Shown: positions 2,120-48,235 of the stretch, in pieces
How the letters are laid out: each line of letters opens with the position of its first letter
Numbering within the stretch: position 1 is the stretch's first letter
Virus record (IMG/VR): IMGVR_UViG_3300045988_114880
Source of the DNA: a virus
Length of the DNA: 55,042 nucleotides
Direction: 5' to 3' (one strand)
Translations under genes and position numbers: made by a program
The notes under the pieces: generated by a model
The model's input: the letters and a program-made list of their open reading frames with translations, nothing else
Database searches by the model: none
Told to the model about the DNA's origin: nothing

Positions 2120-2506
2120 ATGGAATTAAACGACTGGTTGGCTATAATCGGGGCTTTCGGAGGATTGGAGGCTGTCCGTTGGGGTGTCACGTTCTGGGTG
2201 AACCGCAAGACGAACGCACGGAAAGAGGATGCGTCCGCCGATTCAATGGAGGATGAGAACGAGCGCAAGCAGGTTGACTGGCTGGAAGAACGTATCGCCC
2301 AGCGTGACGCCAAGATTGATGCGTTATACGTTGAGCTTCGTAATGAACAGTCTGATAAGCTGGCATGGATTCATAAGTGCCACGAGCTGGAACTGCAATT
2401 GAAAGATGCCGAACATAACCGTTGTGACAGGCCCGACAGCGAATGCGGCCGTCGTATTCCACCACGCAGGGCTACATTAATTAAAGATAAGGAGGAAAAG
2501 AAATGA
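2120..2506 (+). CDS. Lysis-associated membrane protein (holin or spanin-like; N-terminal TM segment plus coiled coil)
   Basis: Hydrophobic WLAIIGAFGGLEAVRWGVTFWV followed by a charged helical region; ATGA overlap with the endolysin gene. Confidence 0.45.
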   Translation: MELNDWLAIIGAFGGLEAVRWGVTFWVNRKTNARKEDASADSMEDENERKQVDWLEERIAQRDAKIDALYVELRNEQSDKLAWIHKCHELELQLKDAEHNRCDRPDSECGRRIPPRRATLIKDKEEKK

Positions 2507-4860: not shown

Positions 4861-6081
4861 ATGACTATGGCTACCGTTAATTTCTATCTTGACACAAGAA
4901 GGGCAAAGGCTAACAATAAATACCCTATTAAGTTACGTATCCAGCATGAAAGCAAATTATTGCTTTCTACGGGGTTTGATTCTGCCATTGAAGCATGGGA
5001 TGGAAGTTGCTATAATAAGAAAGAACCAAATTATAAATATAAAAATGCAGCATTGCGCAATATCTTTGCCGCTGTAGAGAATGAACTTCTTGTCATGCAT
5101 TCTATGGGAAAGCTTAAAGTGATAACCGATAAGATGCTGAAATCTCACTTGGAAGAAATTATTAGCGGCAGGAAAAAGAGTGAAAAGTCATTCATTGATT
5201 ATTTGGATGAATTTGTTTCATTGAAGAATAATGCCGGCACAAAGATTGTTTATGAAACTACCCGAAACAAACTGCTGGCTTTTGACCCTAATTGTACATT
5301 CGATACTATGGACAGAAAATGGCTTGTGTCATTCGAGAATTGGATGAGTGGAAGCGGAATGAAGATAAATGCCTATGCTATTCATATTCGGAATATTCGT
5401 GCTGTTTTCAACTATGCCATTGATGAAGAGATAACCACATTATATCCATTTAGGAAATTCAAGATAAAGAAAGAAGAAACCCGAAAGCGTTCTCTCACCA
5501 TCGAGCAGATTAGAGTACTGAAAGCCTATCCATGCGAGGAATTTGAGGAGAGATACAGGGACTTATTTATGCTGTCGTTTTATTTGATCGGCATAAATAT
5601 AGGGGATATGCTTCTGCTGAAAGAGGAGAACATAGTCAACGGGCGGATTGAATATCATCGTCGAAAAACTGGAAAATTGTATTCAGTGAAGATAGAACCG
5701 GAAGCGCAGGGTATAATTGATCGATATAAGGGAAGGCAATATCTCTTGAATGTTTTGGACGAGTATTCTAATTACAAAGATTTTATCAGTCGGATAAACA
5801 AGGCACTGAAGAATATAGGGCCATTCGAGCGTAAAGGGCTGGGAGGAAAGAAGGTTCGCCAACCGTTATTTCCGGATCTGTCCACATATTGGGCCCGCCA
5901 TTCATGGGCTACATTGGCTGCGGAACTTGATATACCTAAAGAAACTATATCTGCCGGTTTAGGACATGAGATTGGTTCTGATGTTACTAGTATCTATATC
6001 AAATTCGATCAGAAGAAGGTGGACGATGCCAATAGGAGAGTGATTGACTATGTGTTTGGAAAAGAAAAAGCCGGGAAATGA
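4861..6081 (+). CDS. int: Phage integrase (tyrosine recombinase) adjacent to attP
   Basis: WARHSWATLA...GLGHEIGSDVTSIYIKF catalytic region; position next to the tRNA-derived att site. Confidence 0.88.
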   Translation: MTMATVNFYLDTRRAKANNKYPIKLRIQHESKLLLSTGFDSAIEAWDGSCYNKKEPNYKYKNAALRNIFAAVENELLVMHSMGKLKVITDKMLKSHLEEIISGRKKSEKSFIDYLDEFVSLKNNAGTKIVYETTRNKLLAFDPNCTFDTMDRKWLVSFENWMSGSGMKINAYAIHIRNIRAVFNYAIDEEITTLYPFRKFKIKKEETRKRSLTIEQIRVLKAYPCEEFEERYRDLFMLSFYLIGINIGDMLLLKEENIVNGRIEYHRRKTGKLYSVKIEPEAQGIIDRYKGRQYLLNVLDEYSNYKDFISRINKALKNIGPFERKGLGGKKVRQPLFPDLSTYWARHSWATLAAELDIPKETISAGLGHEIGSDVTSIYIKFDQKKVDDANRRVIDYVFGKEKAGK

Positions 6082-6284
6082 TGCCCGGCTTATATTGTTG
6101 GTTTAGAACCGCCACTTATTTTGGTTATAGCGTCATGCTCTGTGTTTTTTCTTTGTTTCTCATCCTCGTCTTTGAGATACTTGTTCCTTATATCTTTGAT
6201 GTCGTTTGTCATTCCCCATACTTTGAAGAAGAGAATAATTTGTAATACTCCGAATATTAGGAGTATGATTTAGGTGTAGTTGTA

Positions 6285-10821: not shown

Positions 10822-10903
10822 GGATGGTTAGCTTATCGGTTAGAGCTTCGTGTTGCGCAAACAATTGGCACGATTGAGAGGGGTTCGATTCCCTTACCAT
10901 CCA
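10822..10903 (+). tRNA. tRNA-like gene with a 16-nt anticodon loop (non-canonical)
   Basis: 7-bp acceptor GGATGGT/ACCATCC, D arm GCTT/GAGC and T arm AGGGG-TTCGATT-CCCTT are canonical; the TCGTG/CACGA stem closes 16 nt. Confidence 0.5.
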
Positions 10904-10929
10904 CGAATCATTAATTAAATTTTACTTTT

Positions 10930-31068: not shown

Positions 31069-31140
31069 CGCGGGGTGTAGCAGTGGTAGCTTTTCACTTT
31101 GACTTGGTGAAGGTCGGTTGTTCGATTCAGCCCCCCGCAA
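31069..31140 (+). tRNA. tRNA-like gene, putative anticodon GAC (Val), with atypical features
   Basis: Acceptor CGCGGGG/CCCCGCA with a C1.A72 mismatch, 3-bp D stem and T arm GGTTG-TTCGATT-CAGCC; anticodon loop TTGACTT (or a 9-nt loop). Confidence 0.5.
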
Positions 31141-31173
31141 CTATTGAGTATTAATTAAAAAAATGACACGATT

Positions 31174-41618: not shown

Positions 41619-42010
41619 TAGTAACTACCGACATAGGAAACATCCTCTACCGGGACTGCAAGGCTTTCGGAATAGATCTAGTGCCTGATGGTGAAACGCT
41701 GACGGGTGAATTGAAGTCCGAAAGGATTGTCATCCACACGAAGAAACAACAGCCGGGAAAGTATTGGAAGAAATCTTTCGCAGAAGTGAATCTATGTGTA
41801 CCCAATTTAAGCGAGAATGAAGCGAACACAATCCGGCTTAACGAACTCGAAAGAAAGGCTGGCAAGCTGCTTGATGATGTAGTAAGCACCTATGACGGTA
41901 CAACCTATCGTTATTCTATCGAATCAATTGGCACGGAAGCGGATACAGCTTTGAAATGCCATTACGTGAATGTGAGAATTTTATTTGAAGTAATAAATGT
42001 AAAACTATAA
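41615..42010 (+). CDS. Tail terminator / neck protein (by position)
   Basis: ATGA-coupled ORF before the major tail gene. Confidence 0.4.
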   Translation: MIVTTDIGNILYRDCKAFGIDLVPDGETLTGELKSERIVIHTKKQQPGKYWKKSFAEVNLCVPNLSENEANTIRLNELERKAGKLLDDVVSTYDGTTYRYSIESIGTEADTALKCHYVNVRILFEVINVKL

Positions 42011-42014
42011 GATT

Positions 42015-42569
42015 ATGATTTCAGCAGTAGGAATAAAAAGAATCTTGTTTGCCGACATTGATAAGGTAACGGCAGACATTACCCCCGAAATCGCAAAGAC
42101 TTTGATTCAAGCCGCTATCAAAGCGAAAGATGAGGTTTTGAATGTACACGGGGAAACGTGGCAGATTGAGGAAACGGAAGCCTCTGTCACCGGGTACAAG
42201 AACCAATTAACGGGAAAGAATTACCGTTACGATGATGTGCCGGGAGAAGTATCGCCCGCTTTCTCTATCGGACAATATGACTGGAAGACCAAGAAAGCGT
42301 TCATGGGTGGCGATGTTATTCAGGCAACATCTAAAGATGTAGGTTGGAAGCGTGCTTTGGATAAAGTTATTATCAACAAAGCATTGTTCTGTCTGACCGA
42401 TGATGATGTCTGGTTCATCTTCCCAAAATGCCGTATTGTTTCCCGTGAAGCCAATACGGATAAGGCAATTGCAATCGCTGTAAAAGGCTTGGTGCAGGAA
42501 CCGGGAATCGAAGGTGTTTCTTCTGAGTATAACTATGAAGAGGGGCAGATTAAAGCTTTGCAGGCATGA
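42015..42569 (+). CDS. Major tail protein (by position)
   Basis: 184-aa ORF immediately upstream of the chaperone/tape-measure genes. Confidence 0.55.
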   Translation: MISAVGIKRILFADIDKVTADITPEIAKTLIQAAIKAKDEVLNVHGETWQIEETEASVTGYKNQLTGKNYRYDDVPGEVSPAFSIGQYDWKTKKAFMGGDVIQATSKDVGWKRALDKVIINKALFCLTDDDVWFIFPKCRIVSREANTDKAIAIAVKGLVQEPGIEGVSSEYNYEEGQIKALQA

Positions 42570-42782
42570 ACTACAGTAACCATTGTACCTACTCCTTCCG
42601 ATGCGACCGTAAAGCTGGACGGTGTAACGGTCAAGTCAAAGCAGGTGAATGCTGGGGCTACCGTTCACTATGAAGTGTCGAAAGTGGGGTACGTCACTCA
42701 GTCAGGAGATATTAAAACCACTCCTTCTGAAGTTGATACCACTCTTAAAAAAGAGATAACATTGGTAAAAGCACAAGAGTGA
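42570..42782 (+). CDS. In-frame 70-codon extension behind the TGA of the major tail gene, encoding an Ig/PEGA-like beta-sandwich (putative readthrough product)
   Basis: No start codon; TTVTIVPTPSDATVKLDGVTVKSKQVNAGATVHYEVSKVGYVTQSGDIKT begins right after the TGA; a terminator follows. Confidence 0.5.
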   Translation, partial: TTVTIVPTPSDATVKLDGVTVKSKQVNAGATVHYEVSKVGYVTQSGDIKTTPSEVDTTLKKEITLVKAQE

Positions 42783-42787
42783 TAACC

Positions 42788-42817
42788 GGGGGATGGATAT
42801 ATACCATTCCCCCTTTT
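42788..42817 (+). terminator. Terminator after the tail-protein extension
   Basis: GGGGGATGG/CCATTCCCCC stem followed by TTTT. Confidence 0.6.
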
Positions 42818-42828
42818 AGTTTAAGAAT

Positions 42829-43215
42829 ATGAATCAAGCAGCAAAAACGGTTTCTGATGCTTTGTTAGGGCTGGATTTCATGAATGTGGAGATAGGAGGG
42901 ATGGTTTATACCATTAAACCTCCTACAATTAAAATTATCTGTCGTGCCATTCATCATTTTTCCAATATCGGCATGACTGGAGATAATGTCATGGAAGCTA
43001 TTAAAGAGCTTCCTGAAGCTACTGAAGATATGCTGAAAGGTATTTCATGCTTCATCTGCGGGAATGATAGTTTGGTCAAAGAATTGGAGAACGGCACTTT
43101 TGAAGAAGTCAAAGATGCCTTGGAAGTCTGTTTCTCTATGATGGATATTTCGGCTTTTCAGTGTGTCAGCTCGATGAGGAACGTGTCGATGCTGGCAGCA
43201 AGACCGAAACAGTAG
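42829..43215 (+). CDS. Tail assembly chaperone (G-like)
   Basis: Position directly before the tape-measure gene, with an overlapping -1 frame ORF. Confidence 0.6.
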   Translation: MNQAAKTVSDALLGLDFMNVEIGGMVYTIKPPTIKIICRAIHHFSNIGMTGDNVMEAIKELPEATEDMLKGISCFICGNDSLVKELENGTFEEVKDALEVCFSMMDISAFQCVSSMRNVSMLAARPKQ

Positions 43216-43409
43216 GAAACACAACGTTCTTCGGGCAGATAGCCCATTTGATTGACACGCTGCATCTGAGTTATACAGAAGTGTTTGAGATTATCCCTTA
43301 TCGGAATCTGCTGATGATGCAACGGGATAAATTACGCGCAGTATATGGTGGTCAGAAGGTGAATAGAATCAGTGGTAAGGAATTGGCTAATCGTAGGAAA
43401 AAGAAATAG
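43161..43409 (+). CDS. -1 frame extension of the tail assembly chaperone (GT-like frameshift product)
   Basis: ORF in the -1 frame relative to 42829..43215; candidate slip site GCTTTTC (T4 at 43155..43158). Confidence 0.5.
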   Translation: MCQLDEERVDAGSKTETVGNTTFFGQIAHLIDTLHLSYTEVFEIIPYRNLLMMQRDKLRAVYGGQKVNRISGKELANRRKKK

Positions 43410-43411
43410 AT

Positions 43412-46400
43412 ATGTCAAAATTATATTTTAAGATAGGTAGTGACTGGGAAGAAGTTGTAAGACTTCGTAATGAAATTGCAAAATTAAAGCAGGAGTTAAT
43501 GAGCATGGATGGCACGCAGACTCCTGCTGCTTTCAAGGCTTTGAATGCCCAACTTGCTGCATCCAACCAAAGATTGGATGAGTTGGTGACTAATGCAGCC
43601 AAAGCTGGAGCGGAGATGGAAACGGGATTCAAAAGGAAAATCTTCGATGCTTCTCAGGTCGTGAATGGATTGTCGGAAAAAATAACATTTCAACGTGGAA
43701 CTATCCAACAATTGAAAAATGAATTGTCCGGTCTTAAAGACAAGTATCGTGAAGCATTAAAACAGGATGGTGATACTTCTTCCTTAGAAGCTAAAATAAG
43801 GTCTACAAATGAAAAATTGAAAGAGCAAAAAAGTTCTTTATTTAACCTTACCCAGGAACAGGCTAACGCCCGCTTGTCAGTAAAGAAGCTCCGCGATGAA
43901 TATGCTTTGTATCGGCAAGATGGTGAAAAAAATGTAGATGTAACTAAGCAGGTGGAACAAGCCATGTCTAATATGGGTAAGAAACTGCTGGGAGGTTATT
44001 CAATCAAAGAATTCTTGTCAAGTATGATTCGTGTTCGTGGCGAATTTCAATCCATGCAGACCGCTATTGAGACTATGGTTGGAAAGGATATGGCAGGGCA
44101 ACTGATTCCGCAAATCAAGGAGCTGGCTAAGATTTCTCCACTTACTATGTCAGATATGGTTGGAGCAGAAAAGATGATGCTTGGATTTAACATACAAGCA
44201 GAAGACACTATCAAATACTTGAAAGCCATTAGTGATATTTCTATGGGGGAATCCAGTAAGTTCAATTCGCTAACTTTGGCATTTTCACAGATGTCAGCAG
44301 CGGGTAAACTTATGGGGCAGGATTTGAATCAAATGATAAACGCTGGATTCAACCCGTTACAGATTATCTCCGAAAAGACCGGAAAATCTATCGCAACTTT
44401 GAAAGATGAAATGTCCAAAGGTGCTGTTTCCGCTGAAATGGTTCAACAGGCATTCATTGATGCAACTTCCGCAGGTGGTAAGTTCTATAATATGTCTGAG
44501 AATGCCTCAAAGACTATCAATGGTCAGTTGTCTATGATGCAGGATGCTTTGGATTCCGTGTTTAACGAATTGGGAACAAAGTCGGAAAGTGTTATCATGG
44601 ACGGTATTCAAATGACAACTTCGTTGATTCAGAATTATGAAACAGTAGGTAAGATCTTGGCTGGATTAGTGGTTACTTATGGTACATACCGGACCGCAGT
44701 GATGCTTGTTACTGCTGCCGAAAGTAAACATACTCTTGTGGAGATTGGACTTACCAATGCCCGTTTATTGGCACGAAAAGCGCAGTTAGCTTTAAACGCT
44801 GCAATGCTTACCAATCCTTATGTGTTGTTGGCTACTGCTGTAGTAGGACTTGGAGTTGCAATGTTGGCTTTCCGCGATTCGGCAACAGAAGCAGAAAAGG
44901 CACAGAGAAGGTTTAATGAACAGCAAGAAGAAGCTAAAAAGCAAGAAGAAGAACACAAACAGAAGATTGATTCCCTCGTACAAAGTTCTCGTGATATAGC
45001 GTTGTCGGATTTACAAAGAGGTCGAAGTTTAGCGGAGTTAAGAAAAGAATACCCTAAGATATTCGCTCAATATGACATCGAAACCATTAAGTTGGCTGAT
45101 ATACTTAAACTAAAGCAACAGATAACGGAAGAAGATGCGAAACGTGCCGGAGAAAAGCAAACCAAGGAACTTTCTAACATTGAATCTGAAATCAAATATT
45201 ACGAGAATCTGCTGAAAACTCTTTCCGGTCAGCAAGGCGTTGATGGATATGTGAAGAAACTAAAAGAATTGCGTGCTATGCGTGATGTCATGCTGCAAGA
45301 AAAAGGCAAAGGCATCTCCGAACAGTTCATTTCCAATCTTAAAGATGTTAATACTAATGAGTTTGACCGCTACATCTCTGAGTTGGAGAAGCGTATCAGA
45401 GGAAAGGGGGGAAATGGAACTGTGAAACTTCGTTTGCCTATTGATATTAAGGGTACTTTGTCTGATGAAGCAATCTATAATGTGAAAGACATAAAAACAC
45501 TTATAGATACAGCAAAATCAGTCAAGCAAACCCGAATTGATTCAGAGAAGAATAAAACTACCTACAAGCAGGATTATGAGAAAGCGAAGAAAGACTGGGA
45601 TGATGCTAAGAAGAAACTTTCTGAAATAGAAAAGAATAAATCCAAGTTTACTTCAAAGCTGTATGAAGAAGCTAAGAAACGAGTAGAAACAACTGAAAAA
45701 GCCTATAAAAATTTGGGCGGTATTACTGGTAGTTCTTTGACCAAGCAGGAAAAAGCTGCTGAAAAGCAAAAAAAAGAACAAAAAAAGACAGCCGAACAAC
45801 TTCTTTCACTTCACCGTCAGAACCAACAGGATGAAATCAACCTGATGATAGAAGGCACGGAAAAGAAGTTGAAACAGATTGACCTTGATTATCAGAAACA
45901 GATTGATGCGATAAGAAAACAGGAGGAAGAATGGAGCAAAGCCGGTAACGGTAAGCTGACCGACAAGCAGGCACAGAAAATTTCAGAAGCTTATACCAAT
46001 GCCGAAAGTATGAGAGATAAAGATATTTCCGATGTAACTGAAGGACAGCTGAAAGCCGAACAACAGGCTTTGAACGACTACTTGAAAGAATATGGCACGT
46101 TCCAGCAGCAGAAATTGGCTATCGCCCAAGAGTATGCGGAAAAAATAAGGAAAGCACAGGAAGAAAACGGTGTTAATAGTGCACAAGTAAAGTTACTGGA
46201 GAAACAACGTGATGTTGCCATACAGAACAAGGAAACAGAAGCCATAAAAGCCAATATAGATTGGGTTACTGTGTTCGGTGAGTTTGGTTCCATGTTTTCC
46301 GACATGATAAAGCCCGCCTTGGACGAAGCGAAAAAATATGTACGGACTGACAAGTTCAAGAACTCCGATCAGGCAAGCCAGAAATCATTGATTGACGCCA

Positions 46401-48235
46401 TCAGCCAGATGGAAAAGTCTTTGGGTGGTACAAGTGGAGTCAACTTCAAGAAACTTGGAGAGGATGTAAAAGCCTATCAAATAGCAGAACAGAATCGTAT
46501 CAGTGCCATAGGGATTGAAACAGCTGCTTTGGAAAGACTAAAGAAATCACAGGATGATTACACCAAAGCGCAGAAGGGCGGAACGGAAAGTGAGAAACAA
46601 GCCGCAGCAAACGCTCTTGAAACAGCACGGCAGAATGCTGACATTGCATCCGCCAATGTGAAGACACAGACTGATATCGCCAATCAGGCCCAGCGTAATG
46701 TGACTGATACCGCCACCAGACTGAAAGCAAGCATGGAAAATTTGTTGGGAGGCTTGCAGCAGATTTCATCCGGTGGATTGTATAACGCATATAGCGGAAT
46801 TATCAAAACCGTGAACGGATTCAAGGATGTCATAGGAAAAACGTCAGAATCTCTTAAGGAGGTCCCCATCGTCGGATGGATTCTGTCCATCATTGACGTA
46901 CTCAAAGACGGATTAAGTGATCTTGTCGGTGGTCTGCTTGATGCTGTTCTGAACGCTGTCAGTGGAATTATCGGTGATGTCTTGTCAGGGGATTTGTTTG
47001 TCACAATCGGCAAGTCATTGAGGAACGGCATAGGAAACATCCTGAACGCAATCTCATTCGGAGGCTTCAACTCCTTGTTTGGAATAGGTGGAAACGCCAA
47101 GGAAGTACAGGAAACGATAGACAGGCTGACGGACAGGAATGAAACTTTGCAAACGGCCATCGAGGATCTGACTGACGAGATGAAGGCAAGCAAGGGAATG
47201 AAATCGGTTGAATCTTACAGGGAAGCTGTAAAGTATCAGGAGGAAGTCAATAAAAACTATCTGCAAATAGCAAAGGAGCAAGCCGGATATCATAAGAGCC
47301 ACGGCAGCTGGCAGCATTATCTGAAATGGACGGATGAAATGCTGGAACACGCAAGAAAAGCTACCGGCATGCAGGATTTCTCCGGCACCGATTCCTTGTG
47401 GAATCTGACCCCCGAACAGATGAAAGCTCTACGGTCGGACGTATGGTTATGGGATATCATGGAATCTTCCGGTAAGGGAGGTTACGGTGAGCGTGTTACC
47501 GACAAGCTGGATGATTATATAGAGCAGGCAGGAAAACTGGAAGAACTGACCGACAGTCTTTATGAGGGCCTGATCGGAATGTCATTCGATTCCATGTATG
47601 ACAGTTTTATAAGCAGTCTGATGGATATGGAGAAGAGTGCGGAGGATTTTGCTGATGACATATCCAAATATTTCATGCAGGCGATGCTGTCAAATGCCAT
47701 CGGTGAACAGTTTAGTGACAAACTGAGGACATGGTATGATAAATTCGGTGAAGCCATGAAGGATGATGGTACGCTTGACAATAATGAGCGTAAGGAGCTG
47801 ATGGATGAATACATGGGTTATGTGGACGAAGCCATGAAGCTCCGTGACGAGCTTGCCGCAGCAACCGGATATGATAAGATTTCGCAAGAATCCTATTCTC
47901 AATCTTCTTCATCAAGAGGGTTCGGCACTGAAATGACGCATGAAGATGCAGGAGAGTTGAACGGTAGGTTTACAGCATTGCAGATTACAGGAGAAGAGAT
48001 AAAGAATCAAAATATCATTCAATCTCAATCACTTAATCTACTGACAGTAAAAGCAGATGCTCTACTTTCCATAAATACGGAAACAAGAAATATTGCTGAT
48101 GATACGCGGGATTTGATAGCGCAATCCTATCTTGAATTGGTACAGATTTCAGAAAATACAGGGGCAATCGTCAAACCTATTCAACAGATGCAAAGAGATA
48201 TAGCAGAGGTTAAAAAGAATACAGCAAAATTATAG
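43412..48235 (+). CDS. Tape measure protein (1607 aa)
   Basis: Size, coiled-coil composition, central hydrophobic segments and position. Confidence 0.85.
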   Translation: MSKLYFKIGSDWEEVVRLRNEIAKLKQELMSMDGTQTPAAFKALNAQLAASNQRLDELVTNAAKAGAEMETGFKRKIFDASQVVNGLSEKITFQRGTIQQLKNELSGLKDKYREALKQDGDTSSLEAKIRSTNEKLKEQKSSLFNLTQEQANARLSVKKLRDEYALYRQDGEKNVDVTKQVEQAMSNMGKKLLGGYSIKEFLSSMIRVRGEFQSMQTAIETMVGKDMAGQLIPQIKELAKISPLTMSDMVGAEKMMLGFNIQAEDTIKYLKAISDISMGESSKFNSLTLAFSQMSAAGKLMGQDLNQMINAGFNPLQIISEKTGKSIATLKDEMSKGAVSAEMVQQAFIDATSAGGKFYNMSENASKTINGQLSMMQDALDSVFNELGTKSESVIMDGIQMTTSLIQNYETVGKILAGLVVTYGTYRTAVMLVTAAESKHTLVEIGLTNARLLARKAQLALNAAMLTNPYVLLATAVVGLGVAMLAFRDSATEAEKAQRRFNEQQEEAKKQEEEHKQKIDSLVQSSRDIALSDLQRGRSLAELRKEYPKIFAQYDIETIKLADILKLKQQITEEDAKRAGEKQTKELSNIESEIKYYENLLKTLSGQQGVDGYVKKLKELRAMRDVMLQEKGKGISEQFISNLKDVNTNEFDRYISELEKRIRGKGGNGTVKLRLPIDIKGTLSDEAIYNVKDIKTLIDTAKSVKQTRIDSEKNKTTYKQDYEKAKKDWDDAKKKLSEIEKNKSKFTSKLYEEAKKRVETTEKAYKNLGGITGSSLTKQEKAAEKQKKEQKKTAEQLLSLHRQNQQDEINLMIEGTEKKLKQIDLDYQKQIDAIRKQEEEWSKAGNGKLTDKQAQKISEAYTNAESMRDKDISDVTEGQLKAEQQALNDYLKEYGTFQQQKLAIAQEYAEKIRKAQEENGVNSAQVKLLEKQRDVAIQNKETEAIKANIDWVTVFGEFGSMFSDMIKPALDEAKKYVRTDKFKNSDQASQKSLIDAISQMEKSLGGTSGVNFKKLGEDVKAYQIAEQNRISAIGIETAALERLKKSQDDYTKAQKGGTESEKQAAANALETARQNADIASANVKTQTDIANQAQRNVTDTATRLKASMENLLGGLQQISSGGLYNAYSGIIKTVNGFKDVIGKTSESLKEVPIVGWILSIIDVLKDGLSDLVGGLLDAVLNAVSGIIGDVLSGDLFVTIGKSLRNGIGNILNAISFGGFNSLFGIGGNAKEVQETIDRLTDRNETLQTAIEDLTDEMKASKGMKSVESYREAVKYQEEVNKNYLQIAKEQAGYHKSHGSWQHYLKWTDEMLEHARKATGMQDFSGTDSLWNLTPEQMKALRSDVWLWDIMESSGKGGYGERVTDKLDDYIEQAGKLEELTDSLYEGLIGMSFDSMYDSFISSLMDMEKSAEDFADDISKYFMQAMLSNAIGEQFSDKLRTWYDKFGEAMKDDGTLDNNERKELMDEYMGYVDEAMKLRDELAAATGYDKISQESYSQSSSSRGFGTEMTHEDAGELNGRFTALQITGEEIKNQNIIQSQSLNLLTVKADALLSINTETRNIADDTRDLIAQSYLELVQISENTGAIVKPIQQMQRDIAEVKKNTAKL

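What the first reader, a model, noticed from the sequence alone, without database searches (positions are those of the whole stretch)
42015..42817. Ig/PEGA-like domain encoded in frame directly behind the TGA stop of the major tail protein gene
The major tail ORF ends ...LQA-TGA at 42567..42569. The same frame then stays open for 70 codons (42570..42779) and ends TGA TAA, followed by a strong terminator (42788..42817). The extension has no ATG/GTG/TTG near its 5' end. The beta-sandwich-like sequence (TVTIVPTPSDATVKLDGVTVKSKQVNAGATVHYEVSKVGYVTQSGDIKT) starts right at the stop codon. Ig-like domains on phage tail and capsid proteins are well known but are usually appended by programmed frameshifting. 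An in-frame UGA suggests partial stop-codon readthrough, giving short and decorated tail-tube subunits. It could alternatively reflect local recoding.
Basis: partly seen in the sequence, partly recalled or inferred. Interest (0 to 1): 0.65.

Follow-up and report, generated by a model that had tools for sequence, protein, structure and literature searches.

The report
Leaky stop decorates phage tail tube
A common human-gut Bacteroides phage keeps a leaky TGA stop codon at the end of its tail-tube gene, so a minority of tube subunits probably carry an extra surface domain; DNA phages normally make such two-form proteins by frameshifting.

Summary
The 184-codon tail-tube ORF (42015..42566) ends at TGA 42567..42569. 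The same frame stays open for 70 codons (42570..42779) and ends TGA TAA before a terminator hairpin.

- **The extension is a real domain.** It matches Pfam PF25641 (E 1.6e-14) and the exposed part of the crAss001 head-fibre protein gp29 (E 1.7e-8).
- **The arrangement is conserved.** At least six tube lineages, only 27-51% identical to each other, have the same "A TGA AC" junction followed in frame by this domain. That is 164 of 165 loci. The extension has dN/dS of 0.03-0.25 with saturated dS.
- **The stop type is specific.** Tube genes without the domain mostly end in TAA.
- **Sense-codon variants exist.** A few natural variants carry TGG (Trp) or Leu at the stop position.
- **Other mechanisms are unsupported.** TGA is an ordinary stop elsewhere in the genome. 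I found no suppressor tRNA, no SECIS-like element and no conserved start codon.

Best reading: low-level UGA readthrough, most likely by tRNA-Trp, gives a mixed tail tube of 20.4-kDa and 27.9-kDa subunits. It works like SPP1 gp17.1/gp17.1* but through Qβ-A1-type readthrough. No protein data exist, and my literature searches found no earlier description.

The parts
42015..42566 (+). Major tail (tube) protein coding sequence, 184 codons, 20.4 kDa; the product of normal termination.
   Evidence: ORF. It matches phrog_14600 (E 1.8e-45). It lies between head-tail joining genes and the chaperone and tape-measure genes. Foldseek hits of the AF2 model are Bxb1, Douge, T5 and Chi tail tube proteins and BFVD 'major tail protein' entries. 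Mass.
42566..42571 (+). Readthrough site: A TGA AC (stop codon 42567..42569). The -1 A and the +4/+5 AC are invariant in all lineages that carry the extension.
   Evidence: The last sense codon is GCA, ACA, GTA, AAA or GAA, and always ends in A. The next codon is always ACN, with all four third bases seen. Only 1 of 12 conserved four-fold sites in the extension is invariant across the same sequences. Natural variants carry TGG (L083) or Leu (P0126).
42570..42779 (+). In-frame extension of 70 codons encoding one HFD-like beta-sandwich domain. Readthrough product: 255 aa, 27.9 kDa.
   Evidence: Pfam PF25641 E 1.6e-14. crAss001 head fibre dimer protein gp29 residues 58-108, E 1.7e-8. dN/dS is 0.03-0.25 with dS 1-3 between lineages. 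The domain is a widespread tandem repeat in large proteins.
42780..42785 (+). Tandem stop TGA TAA that ends the extension, a back-up against a second readthrough. Other lineages end the extension with TAA or TAG.
   Evidence: The SPP1 genome paper describes UGAUAA tandems as ensuring termination (PMC6316719).
42788..42817 (+). Intrinsic-terminator-like hairpin plus T-run. It lies after the extension, not after the first TGA.
   Evidence: stem 42788..42812, 9 pairs. Close relatives without the extension have their own, different hairpin directly after their TAA.

Best explanation
**Mechanism proposed.** The tail-tube gene ends in a deliberately retained, leak-prone UGA in the context A-UGA-AC. 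Most ribosomes terminate there and make the 184-aa (20.4 kDa) tube subunit. A minority decode UGA with a near-cognate tRNA, most likely tRNA-Trp(CCA). They continue for 70 codons and make a 255-aa (27.9 kDa) subunit with a C-terminal HFD-like beta-sandwich domain. Both forms co-assemble around the tape measure, so each tail exposes some of these domains.

**Expected numbers (inferred).** The 1607-aa tape measure implies a tail of about 240 nm, or roughly 56 hexameric rings and about 340 subunits. Readthrough of 1-7% would then give about 3-25 decorated subunits per tail.

**Likely role (inferred).** The domains probably act as weak adhesins for host surface polysaccharide or gut mucus. This rests only on analogy with SPP1 gp17.1* and other phage Ig-like domains.

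**What is shown:** the sequence anatomy, domain homology, conservation of the TGA and its context, purifying selection on the extension, cassette-like gain and loss, and natural sense-codon variants.

**What is inferred:** that readthrough occurs, its efficiency, Trp as the inserted residue, and the adhesive role.
For: 1. **Anatomy.** TGA at 42567..42569, 70 open in-frame codons with no usable start, then TGA TAA and a terminator.
2. **Real domain.** The extension is a virion-surface domain: PF25641 at E 1.6e-14 and crAss001 gp29 residues 58-108 at E 1.7e-8.
3. **Conservation across lineages.** Six tube lineages, 27-51% identical in the tube protein, all have NNA-TGA-ACN followed in frame by this domain. 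That is 164 of 165 domain-bearing loci and 80 of 80 metagenome contigs.
4. **Selection on the extension.** dN/dS is 0.03-0.25 while dS is 1-3. The frame is therefore translated, and the TGA has survived saturation of synonymous sites.
5. **Stop-codon choice.** TGA in 6 of 6 lineages with the extension, against 4 of 24 tube genes without it (17 TAA, 3 TAG). Fisher p = 3.5e-4.
6. **Sense-codon variants.** Natural TGG variants occur on several haplotypes (P0001/L083, P0127, P0129, P0131, P0133, P0134), and one Leu variant (P0126). The fusion is therefore viable and Trp is tolerated. These variants are rare: no sense codon in the 160 sampled contigs, and six TGG plus one Leu protein among the members listed, against a cluster of 2874 short-form sequences.
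7. **No dedicated recoding.** TGA is a normal stop for many genes here, including the major head protein. There is no suppressor tRNA or tRNA-Trp in the window or in the rest of BS-TP2.
8. **Precedent.** UGA is read by Trp-tRNA-Trp in competition with RF2 at 1e-3 to 1e-2 in E. coli (PMC10570021) and at about 1/15 in Qβ A1 (PMC8067240). A 3' A favouring UGA leakiness (Engelberg-Kulka 1981) is from my own knowledge; I saw the reference listed but could not read the paper.
Against: - There is no protein-level evidence of any kind. The efficiency and the inserted amino acid are unknown.
- UGA readthrough has not, to my knowledge, been measured in Bacteroidales.
- No strong RNA stimulator lies next to the stop: z = -0.66 and no Rfam match. 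Readthrough may therefore be no higher than background.
- Some lineages have an in-frame start-like codon early in the extension: ATT in this window, ATG at codon 4 in L192-type loci, GTG in L122/L208. Separate initiation cannot be excluded in those.
- A rare 1-nt-deletion variant (P0130) would express the domain on its own from the overlapping ATG.
- The six 'lineages' share one cassette ancestor, so they are not fully independent samples.
Confidence: 0.8

Rival explanations
1. The extension is a separate small gene. After termination at TGA, ribosomes re-initiate, or initiate independently, at a nearby non-canonical or canonical start and make a free domain of about 66-70 aa.
For: - NCBI records call a 66-aa 'HFD-like domain-containing protein' from the ATT at codon 5 (P0121, P0122).
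- L192-type loci have ATG at codon 4, and L122/L208 have GTG at codon 3 or 6.
- ATGA stop-start overlaps are common in this genome.
- Variant P0130 puts the overlapping ATG in frame with the domain.
Against: - No start-like codon is conserved. Lineages B, C and E (L106, L107, L121, L135) have none in the first 10 codons.
- The frame relation to the tube gene is invariant, always 0, and the domain starts exactly at the stop. A separate gene would not need either.
- The ATG-frame ORF is not conserved (ATG AAC TGA in L122).
- A free 7-kDa domain has no evident way to attach to the virion. In crAss001 gp29 the homologous domain hangs on a capsid-binding N-terminus (PMC10172136).
- The TGG fusion variants are viable.
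Confidence: 0.07
2. The extension is normally silent. It is expressed only in rare TGA-to-TGG (or other sense) mutants, as a population-level polymorphism, and readthrough itself is irrelevant.
For: TGG and Leu variants occur on several haplotypes at low frequency. No stimulatory RNA element was found at the stop.
Against: - A silent sequence would not keep dN/dS at 0.03-0.25 through dS of 1-3.
- TGA rather than TAA/TAG is kept in all six lineages, and the -1 A and +4 A are invariant. Those features matter only if the stop is decoded.
- Point-mutational switching is too slow and too irreversible to maintain a cassette in six lineages.
Confidence: 0.05
3. Dedicated recoding: TGA is read here by a suppressor tRNA, as selenocysteine, or under a reassigned code (TGA = Trp or Gly), as in recoded gut phages.
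For: Gut phages with TGA or TAG reassignment are known (own knowledge). P0125 and P0128 were called by a gene finder under code 4 and end '...AQEW'.
Against: - TGA terminates many well-bounded genes in the window, and no other gene needs an in-frame TGA.
- The only tRNAs are Arg(gcg) and Val(gac) in the window, and none in the remainder of BS-TP2.
- No SECIS or other Rfam match and no hairpin next to the UGA.
- Natural replacements are Trp and Leu, not Cys.
Confidence: 0.03
4. Decaying remnant: a once-fused tube-plus-domain gene that acquired a nonsense mutation, leaving the downstream sequence untranslated.
For: Fused tube-plus-decoration-domain proteins are common in other siphophages; the full-length Foldseek matches are to tail proteins of 265-300 residues. 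The BS-TP2 record leaves the stretch unannotated.
Against: There are no frameshifts or stops in 29 distinct sequences of six lineages, with strong purifying selection. The same stop codon sits at the same position in all of them. The terminator is placed after the extension.
Confidence: 0.02

Closest known systems
Bacillus phage SPP1 tail tube proteins gp17.1 / gp17.1* (also Listeria phages PSA, A118, A500 and Lactobacillus phage A2 major tail and capsid proteins)
   Same: One tail-tube gene gives a short form and a C-terminally extended form: 177 and 264 aa in SPP1, 184 and 255 aa here. The extension is a non-essential, surface-exposed beta-sandwich thought to aid adhesion. Both forms build one tube, at 3:1 in SPP1 (PMC6316719; PMC5009743).
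   Different: Those phages use a programmed +1 or -1 frameshift into another frame (CCC_UAA in SPP1). Here the extension is in the same frame behind a UGA and no slippery site is needed. The domain family also differs: FN3/Ig there, PF25641 HFD-like here.
RNA coliphage Qβ readthrough protein A1
   Same: A structural-protein gene ends in a leaky UGA. tRNA-Trp misreads it at a low rate (about 1/15), giving a minor, extended virion subunit that is incorporated with the major form (PMC8067240). From my own knowledge, the base after the UGA is A in both.
   Different: Qβ is a 4.2-kb ssRNA levivirus of E. coli, and its extension is a 196-aa unrelated domain on the capsid. Here it is a ~57-kb dsDNA temperate siphophage of Bacteroidales, and the extension is a 70-aa HFD-like domain on the tail tube. 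The Qβ case is proven at the protein level; this one is not.
ΦcrAss001 head fibre dimeric protein gp29 (PF25641)
   Same: The domain is homologous: gp29 residues 58-108 match extension residues 2-51 at E 1.7e-8. Both are exposed virion decorations of phages infecting Bacteroidales (PMC10172136).
   Different: gp29 is a stand-alone protein whose residues 1-58 anchor it in capsid hexons. Here the domain has no anchor of its own and hangs on the tail-tube subunit through a stop codon.
Tail tube proteins with a constitutively fused C-terminal decoration domain (mycobacteriophage Bxb1; also λ gpV and T5 pb6, from own knowledge)
   Same: The two-part layout is the same: a tube-fold N-terminal part and a C-terminal decoration domain. 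Bxb1 chains are the best PDB matches to the model of the TGG fusion variant.
   Different: In those phages every subunit carries the domain. Here the stop codon is conserved, so only a fraction should.

Membership tests
Programmed stop-codon (UGA) readthrough, Qβ-A1 type | An ORF continues in the same frame directly behind the stop, with no start codon of its own. | tested here: met
   There are 70 open codons, and the first ATG/GTG/TTG is at codon 26. No start-like codon is conserved among lineages.
Programmed stop-codon (UGA) readthrough, Qβ-A1 type | The downstream frame evolves as protein-coding sequence. | tested here: met
   dN/dS is 0.03-0.25 with dS 1-3 in pairwise comparisons of 8 representatives. 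No stops or frame-breaking indels in 29 distinct sequences.
Programmed stop-codon (UGA) readthrough, Qβ-A1 type | The stop codon, its type and its immediate context are conserved among relatives. | tested here: met
   TGA in 164 of 165 loci and in six lineages. 'A TGA AC' is invariant. Tube genes without the extension mostly use TAA; Fisher p = 3.5e-4.
Programmed stop-codon (UGA) readthrough, Qβ-A1 type | Two protein products sharing an N-terminus, and the identity of the residue inserted at the stop. | not testable with these tools
   This needs mass spectrometry or immunoblots of BS-TP2 virions. Natural TGG variants are only indirect support for Trp.
Programmed stop-codon (UGA) readthrough, Qβ-A1 type | A stimulatory RNA structure 3' of the stop (present in many eukaryotic-virus cases; not known to be required in Qβ). 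| tested here: inconclusive
   No significant local fold (z = -0.66) and no Rfam hit. A candidate hairpin with covarying pairs starts 52 nt downstream. That is too far for a classical stimulator, and it is unproven.
Frameshift-generated two-form major tail proteins (SPP1 gp17.1*, PSA/A118 Tsh) | The extension is encoded in the +1 or -1 frame and reached through a slippery or shift-prone site at the end of the tube gene. | tested here: not met
   The extension is in frame 0 in every lineage. This works like that family but is not a member of it.
Frameshift-generated two-form major tail proteins (SPP1 gp17.1*, PSA/A118 Tsh) | An N-terminal tail-tube protein followed by a small C-terminal beta-sandwich decoration. 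| tested here: met
   Synteny. Foldseek hits to tail tube and major tail proteins at prob up to 0.99-1.00 but modest E-values, from a model with pLDDT 66.8. PF25641 for the extension.
Pfam PF25641 Head_fiber_dimeric (HFD-like) domain | Score above the curated gathering threshold, and homology to crAss001 gp29. | tested here: met
   53.8 bits against a cut-off of 30, E 1.6e-14. Chain 7qof_j, E 1.7e-8.
   PF25641 was the only Pfam family reported at E <= 1.
Stop-codon reassignment in phages (TGA = Trp with a suppressor tRNA) | Many genes interrupted by in-frame TGA, together with a phage-encoded suppressor tRNA. | tested here: not met
   TGA is a regular stop and no other interrupted genes were found. 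Only tRNA-Arg(gcg) and tRNA-Val(gac) are present.
Bacterial selenocysteine insertion | A SECIS hairpin immediately 3' of the UGA, with Cys in homologues at that position. | tested here: not met
   No Rfam match and no local hairpin. The variants carry Trp or Leu.

The most novel reading that the evidence does not exclude
This would be the first programmed stop-codon readthrough signal described for a dsDNA phage, and for Bacteroidales translation. The signal would be a mobile cassette of 'A-UGA-AC + HFD-like domain (+ an internal conserved hairpin at 42621..42669) + terminator' that moves between unrelated tail-tube genes. Its efficiency would be set above background by the conserved context or RNA element. 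It might also vary with host physiology (tRNA-Trp and RF2 levels, or variant 4-bp-anticodon-stem tRNA-Trp genes reported in some Bacteroides; PMC13092985). The number of adhesin domains per tail would then be tuned to growth conditions.
Probability: 0.25. Interest if true: 0.85.

Novelty: new variant of a known kind. Interest (0 to 1): 0.68.

Why it matters
- **Rarity.** Functional stop-codon readthrough is very rare in bacteria and their DNA phages; the textbook case is the RNA phage Qβ. Phage Ig-like decorations are described as being added by +1/-1 frameshifting or by direct fusion (PMC5009743).
- **A third route with strong comparative support.** An in-frame leaky UGA would be that route. 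It is backed here by six tube lineages and several hundred contigs.
- **A tractable, relevant system.** BS-TP2 is a cultured temperate phage found in 33.5% of 930 Chinese gut viromes (PMC12694917).
- **An annotation error.** Current records miss the extension (BS-TP2) or call it as a separate 66-aa gene (Phocaeicola and Bacteroides genomes).
- **A natural reporter.** The junction could be used to measure termination fidelity in Bacteroides. It also offers a simple way to display proteins at low copy on a gut-phage tail.

Tried and rejected
- **Global or local code change:** rejected. TGA is a normal stop in many genes, and no other long ORF is followed by a coding in-frame continuation; the candidate at 6082..6270 looks non-coding.
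- **Suppressor tRNA:** none in the window or in the remaining 2.5 kb of BS-TP2.
- **SECIS or known recoding RNA:** no Rfam match in 41900..43500 at E <= 1.
- **Stimulatory structure at the stop:** the MFE of 42555..42680 is not different from shuffles (z = -0.66). The alifold structure starts 30-52 nt downstream, and its covariation is only suggestive.
- **ORF starting at the overlapping ATG (42566):** 35 codons here, 15 in L106 and 2 in L122, so it is not conserved.
- **Stop-hopping:** there is no matching landing codon for GCA/ACA/GTA/AAA/GAA near the stop (read directly from the sequence).
- **Tube protein against Pfam:** no hit for the tube protein.
- **Tube alignment against PDB sequences:** only two hits, both with E about 0.4. 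The tube assignment therefore rests on synteny and fold search.
- **Metagenome pattern scan for junction variants:** 80 contigs read, all TGA.
- **Engelberg-Kulka 1981 (PMC326727):** could not be read.
- **Literature:** five full-text searches for readthrough in phage tail or structural genes found only frameshift cases. This does not prove that no report exists.
Full report
**1. The observation**

The window is 98.6% identical over the tested stretch to Bacteroides phage BS-TP2 (PQ571275), a temperate phage of B. salyersiae.

- The ORF 42015..42569 encodes 184 aa and ends ...IKALQA-TGA at 42567..42569.
- The same frame runs on for 70 codons (42570..42779; TTVTIVPTPSDATVKLDGVTVKSKQVNAGATVHYEVSKVGYVTQSGDIKTTPSEVDTTLKKEITLVKAQE) and ends TGA TAA.
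- The first ATG/GTG/TTG in that frame is a GTG at codon 26, in the middle of the domain.
- A hairpin at 42788..42812 followed by a T-run comes next.
- The BS-TP2 record annotates the 184-aa 'tail protein' and leaves the next 259 bases empty.

**2. What the two parts are**

The 184-aa protein has no Pfam match and belongs to phrog_14600, a family of unknown function. Three lines support its identity as the major tail (tube) protein.

- **Position.** It lies after the major head, adaptor, HK97-gp10-like and DUF3168-like genes. It lies before a 128-aa ORF with an overlapping -1-frame ORF and a 1607-aa tape measure gene.
- **PDB fold search.** An AlphaFold model of a natural full-length fusion variant (P0001; mean pLDDT 66.8, pTM 0.66) finds mycobacteriophage Bxb1 and Douge, T5 pb6 and phage Chi tail proteins (prob up to 0.99).
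- **BFVD fold search.** The hits are almost exclusively 'major tail protein' or 'tail tube protein' entries.

The E-values are modest, so this is good but not decisive support.

The 70-aa extension is clearer.

- It scores 53.8 bits (E 1.6e-14; cut-off 30) against Pfam PF25641, 'Head fiber dimeric protein-like domain'.
- It aligns to residues 58-108 of the ΦcrAss001 head fibre dimer protein gp29 (E 1.7e-8).
- In that virion, residues 1-58 of gp29 anchor the protein in capsid hexons and the rest projects outward (PMC10172136).
- An exhaustive profile search shows the same domain as a tandem repeat, up to 17 matched stretches, in many large proteins.

It is therefore a promiscuous surface beta-sandwich module.

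**3. Relatives**

This was the key test.

*Within the window's own lineage.* 80 of 81 IMG/VR loci with a ~100% identical tube gene have GCA TGA ACT; the other has a 1-nt deletion. Another 80 of 80 metagenome contigs matching a pattern with NNN at the stop have TGA.

*Across the tube family.* A genome scan with a tube alignment gave 27 loci, from 99% down to 27% identity.

- Those at 92-93% identity (L085, L086) and most others have no extension. They end in TAA with only a few in-frame codons behind. An alignment shows that the extension plus its terminator is a replaced cassette between the conserved tube core and the conserved chaperone gene.
- Paraprevotella prophages (L106, L107) and MT838188 (L002) have tube proteins only 28-29% identical to the window's. 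Yet they have GCA/ACA TGA ACA/ACT followed in frame by a 70-codon domain 66-69% identical to the window's.

*Searching with the domain.* This added more tube lineages: L121, L122/L208, L135 and L192/L204.

In all, 164 of 165 loci that carry the domain behind a tube gene have TGA exactly at the domain start, always in frame. One (L083) has TGG. The tube proteins of the six lineages are 27-51% identical to each other, whereas the extensions are 58-79% identical.

**4. Selection**

- **The extension is translated.** Between lineages it has dN/dS of 0.03-0.25 with dS about 1-3, which is saturated. No stops or frame-breaking indels occur in 29 distinct sequences.
- **All three bases of the stop are constrained.** TGA has been kept through that divergence, although seven of its nine single-base neighbours are sense codons and one is TAA.
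- **TGA is a specific choice.** Tube genes of the same family without the extension use TAA 17 times, TAG 3 times and TGA 4 times, against TGA in 6 of 6 lineages with it (Fisher p = 3.5e-4).
- **The flanking bases are conserved.** The last sense codon is GCA, ACA, GTA, AAA or GAA: five codons and five amino acids, always ending in A. The next codon is always ACN with all four third bases. Only 1 of 12 conserved four-fold-degenerate sites in the extension is invariant across the same 12 sequences. The constrained string is A-UGA-AC.
- **The extension's own stop fits the picture.** In the window's lineage the extension ends with UGA backed by UAA. In the others it ends with UAA or UAG. That fits a genome in which UGA is treated as leaky. 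The SPP1 genome paper makes the same point about UGAUAA tandems (PMC6316719).

**5. Natural sense-codon variants**

The protein database holds 255-aa proteins with Trp at position 185 that still end ...AQE, so they are not code-4 gene calls.

- These are P0001, P0127, P0129, P0131, P0133 and P0134. They sit on different haplotypes, and one (P0131) is otherwise identical to the window's protein.
- P0126 has Leu at that position.
- The DNA of P0001 reads GCA TGG ACT.

The all-extended form is therefore viable and Trp is accepted at the junction. It stays rare: the short-form cluster P0003 has 2874 member sequences, and none of the 160 contigs sampled had a sense codon. That pattern is expected if a mixture of forms is favoured.

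**6. Mechanism**

*Alternatives examined:*

- **Code change or dedicated suppressor.** TGA ends many well-bounded genes here, including the major head protein. No other gene has a coding in-frame continuation. The only tRNAs are Arg(gcg) and Val(gac), with none in the rest of BS-TP2.
- **Selenocysteine.** There is no SECIS or other Rfam match and no hairpin next to the UGA. The replacements are Trp and Leu, not Cys.
- **Separate initiation.** NCBI records call a 66-aa ORF from the ATT at codon 5, and three lineages have an early ATT, ATG or GTG. Three have none. A separate gene would not require the invariant frame-0 relation.
- **The overlapping ATG (42566).** It opens a frame that is not conserved (ATG AAC TGA in L122).
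- **Hopping.** It lacks a landing codon.

*What remains.* Near-cognate decoding of UGA is left.

- In E. coli, Trp-tRNA-Trp competes with RF2 at UGA at about 1e-3 to 1e-2 (PMC10570021).
- In Qβ the coat-protein UGA is read as Trp about 1 time in 15 (PMC8067240).
- B. subtilis also reads UGA as Trp at low efficiency (Lovett 1991, cited in PMC6316719).
- That a 3' A makes UGA leaky (Engelberg-Kulka 1981; Poole 1995) is from my own knowledge. I could not read the paper.

*Consequence (inferred).* The 1607-aa tape measure implies a tail of about 240 nm and roughly 340 tube subunits (using 0.15 nm per residue and a 4.3-nm ring rise, both from own knowledge). Readthrough of 1-7% would then display about 3-25 domains per tail.

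*Function (inferred).* By analogy with SPP1 gp17.1* (non-essential, FN3, thought to aid adhesion) and with the exposed fibre domain of crAss001 gp29, the likely role is weak binding to host surface glycans or mucus. This step is inference only.

**7. A possible RNA element**

RNAalifold on eight representatives predicts a structure inside the extension. Its main stem-loop corresponds to window 42621..42669.

- Several pairs covary. Pair 63/107 shows U-A, C-G, G-C and U-G and is paired in 29 of 29 distinct sequences.
- Pairs 81/92 and 82/91 each show two Watson-Crick types and are paired in 29 of 29.
- The covariation score exceeds 499 of 500 column shuffles.

Against this, the sequences are related, the structure was derived from the same alignment, the single-sequence fold is not unusual, and the stem starts 52 nt after the stop. 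I leave it as unexplained.

**8. Comparison with what is known**

- **It works like SPP1 gp17.1/gp17.1*** and the Listeria and Lactobacillus phage cases: one tube gene, two products, and a C-terminal beta-sandwich on a fraction of subunits.
- **It fails their defining feature,** a +1 or -1 frameshift into another frame.
- **The decoding event is of the Qβ-A1 type,** but in a dsDNA siphophage of Bacteroidales and with an unrelated domain.
- **The main review** describes Ig-like extensions as arising by +1 or -1 frameshifting or by in-frame fusion, and does not list a stop-readthrough case (PMC5009743).
- **My five literature searches** found none either. This is absence from a limited library, not proof.

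I rate it a new variant of a known kind.

**9. Verdict**

- The mechanism, UGA readthrough most likely inserting Trp, is inferred with confidence of about 0.8.
- The efficiency, the inserted residue, any stimulatory element and the biological role remain untested.
- BS-TP2 is cultured, so the decisive experiments are straightforward.

Noticed in passing
window 42829..43215 and 43161..43409: A 128-aa ORF and an overlapping ORF in the -1 frame lie just upstream of the 1607-aa tape measure gene (43412..48235). This is the layout of the lambda G/GT tail chaperone frameshift pair. The ORFs match phrog_13669 and phrog_14740, both of unknown function. I did not find an obvious XXXYYYZ slippery site, and the BS-TP2 record annotates only the first ORF.
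   Followed up: partly
window 42582..42779 (ATT at 42582); proteins P0121, P0122, P0123: NCBI and UniRef records for Phocaeicola vulgatus, Bacteroides sp. and B. finegoldii genomes call the extension as a separate 66-68-aa 'HFD-like domain-containing protein' or 'hypothetical protein' with a non-canonical start. This is probably a mis-annotation of the readthrough extension.
   Followed up: partly
window 42621..42669 (alignment A5 columns 61-109): A candidate conserved stem-loop lies inside the extension coding sequence. Its covarying pairs link synonymous and non-synonymous sites, for example GGU/CAC, GGC/CGC and GGG/UCC. It starts 52 nt 3' of the TGA, and its function, if any, is unknown.
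   Followed up: partly
protein P0130 (2 contigs); locus L070: Rare indel variants occur at the junction. P0130 (MNYSTIVPTPSD...) fits a 1-nt deletion that puts the ATG of the ATGA overlap in frame with the domain, which would express it as a free 71-aa protein. L070 has a 1-nt deletion just before the TGA (GGC TGA). I did not check whether these are real or assembly errors.
   Followed up: no
loci L192-L200 and L204 (junction at ~2471..2495): One tube lineage with the same TGA junction has an in-frame ATG at codon 4 of the extension (TTVMVTPTPSD). Separate initiation and readthrough are both possible there.
   Followed up: no
loci L085 and L086 compared with window 42540..42830: Tube genes 92-93% identical to the window's lack the whole TGA-domain-terminator cassette. 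They carry a different short C-terminus, TAA and a different terminator hairpin, while the flanking tube core and chaperone gene are conserved. This is a clean example of module replacement.
   Followed up: yes
loci L189-L191, L201, L203, L205: The same HFD-like domain sits inside ordinary ORFs of 268-699 codons (MAQLKSMIR... proteins), mostly on large (72-142 kb) viral contigs. The module is therefore shared among very different gut phages.
   Followed up: no
window 10822..10904 and 31069..31141: Two phage-borne tRNA genes, Arg(gcg) and Val(gac). Neither can read UGA.
   Followed up: partly
window 4861..6081 and 6082..6270: A 406-aa ORF ends in TGA and is followed by 63 open in-frame codons. 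Their translation (CPAYIVGLEPPLILVIASCSVFFLCF...) looks non-coding, so this is probably chance.
   Followed up: partly
PMC13092985 (literature lead): A 2026 survey reports tRNA-Trp(CCA) genes with a 4-bp anticodon stem that raise UGA readthrough. It lists Bacteroides oleiciplenus among the few genomes carrying both the 4-bp and 5-bp forms. I did not check whether hosts of these phages carry such a tRNA.
   Followed up: no
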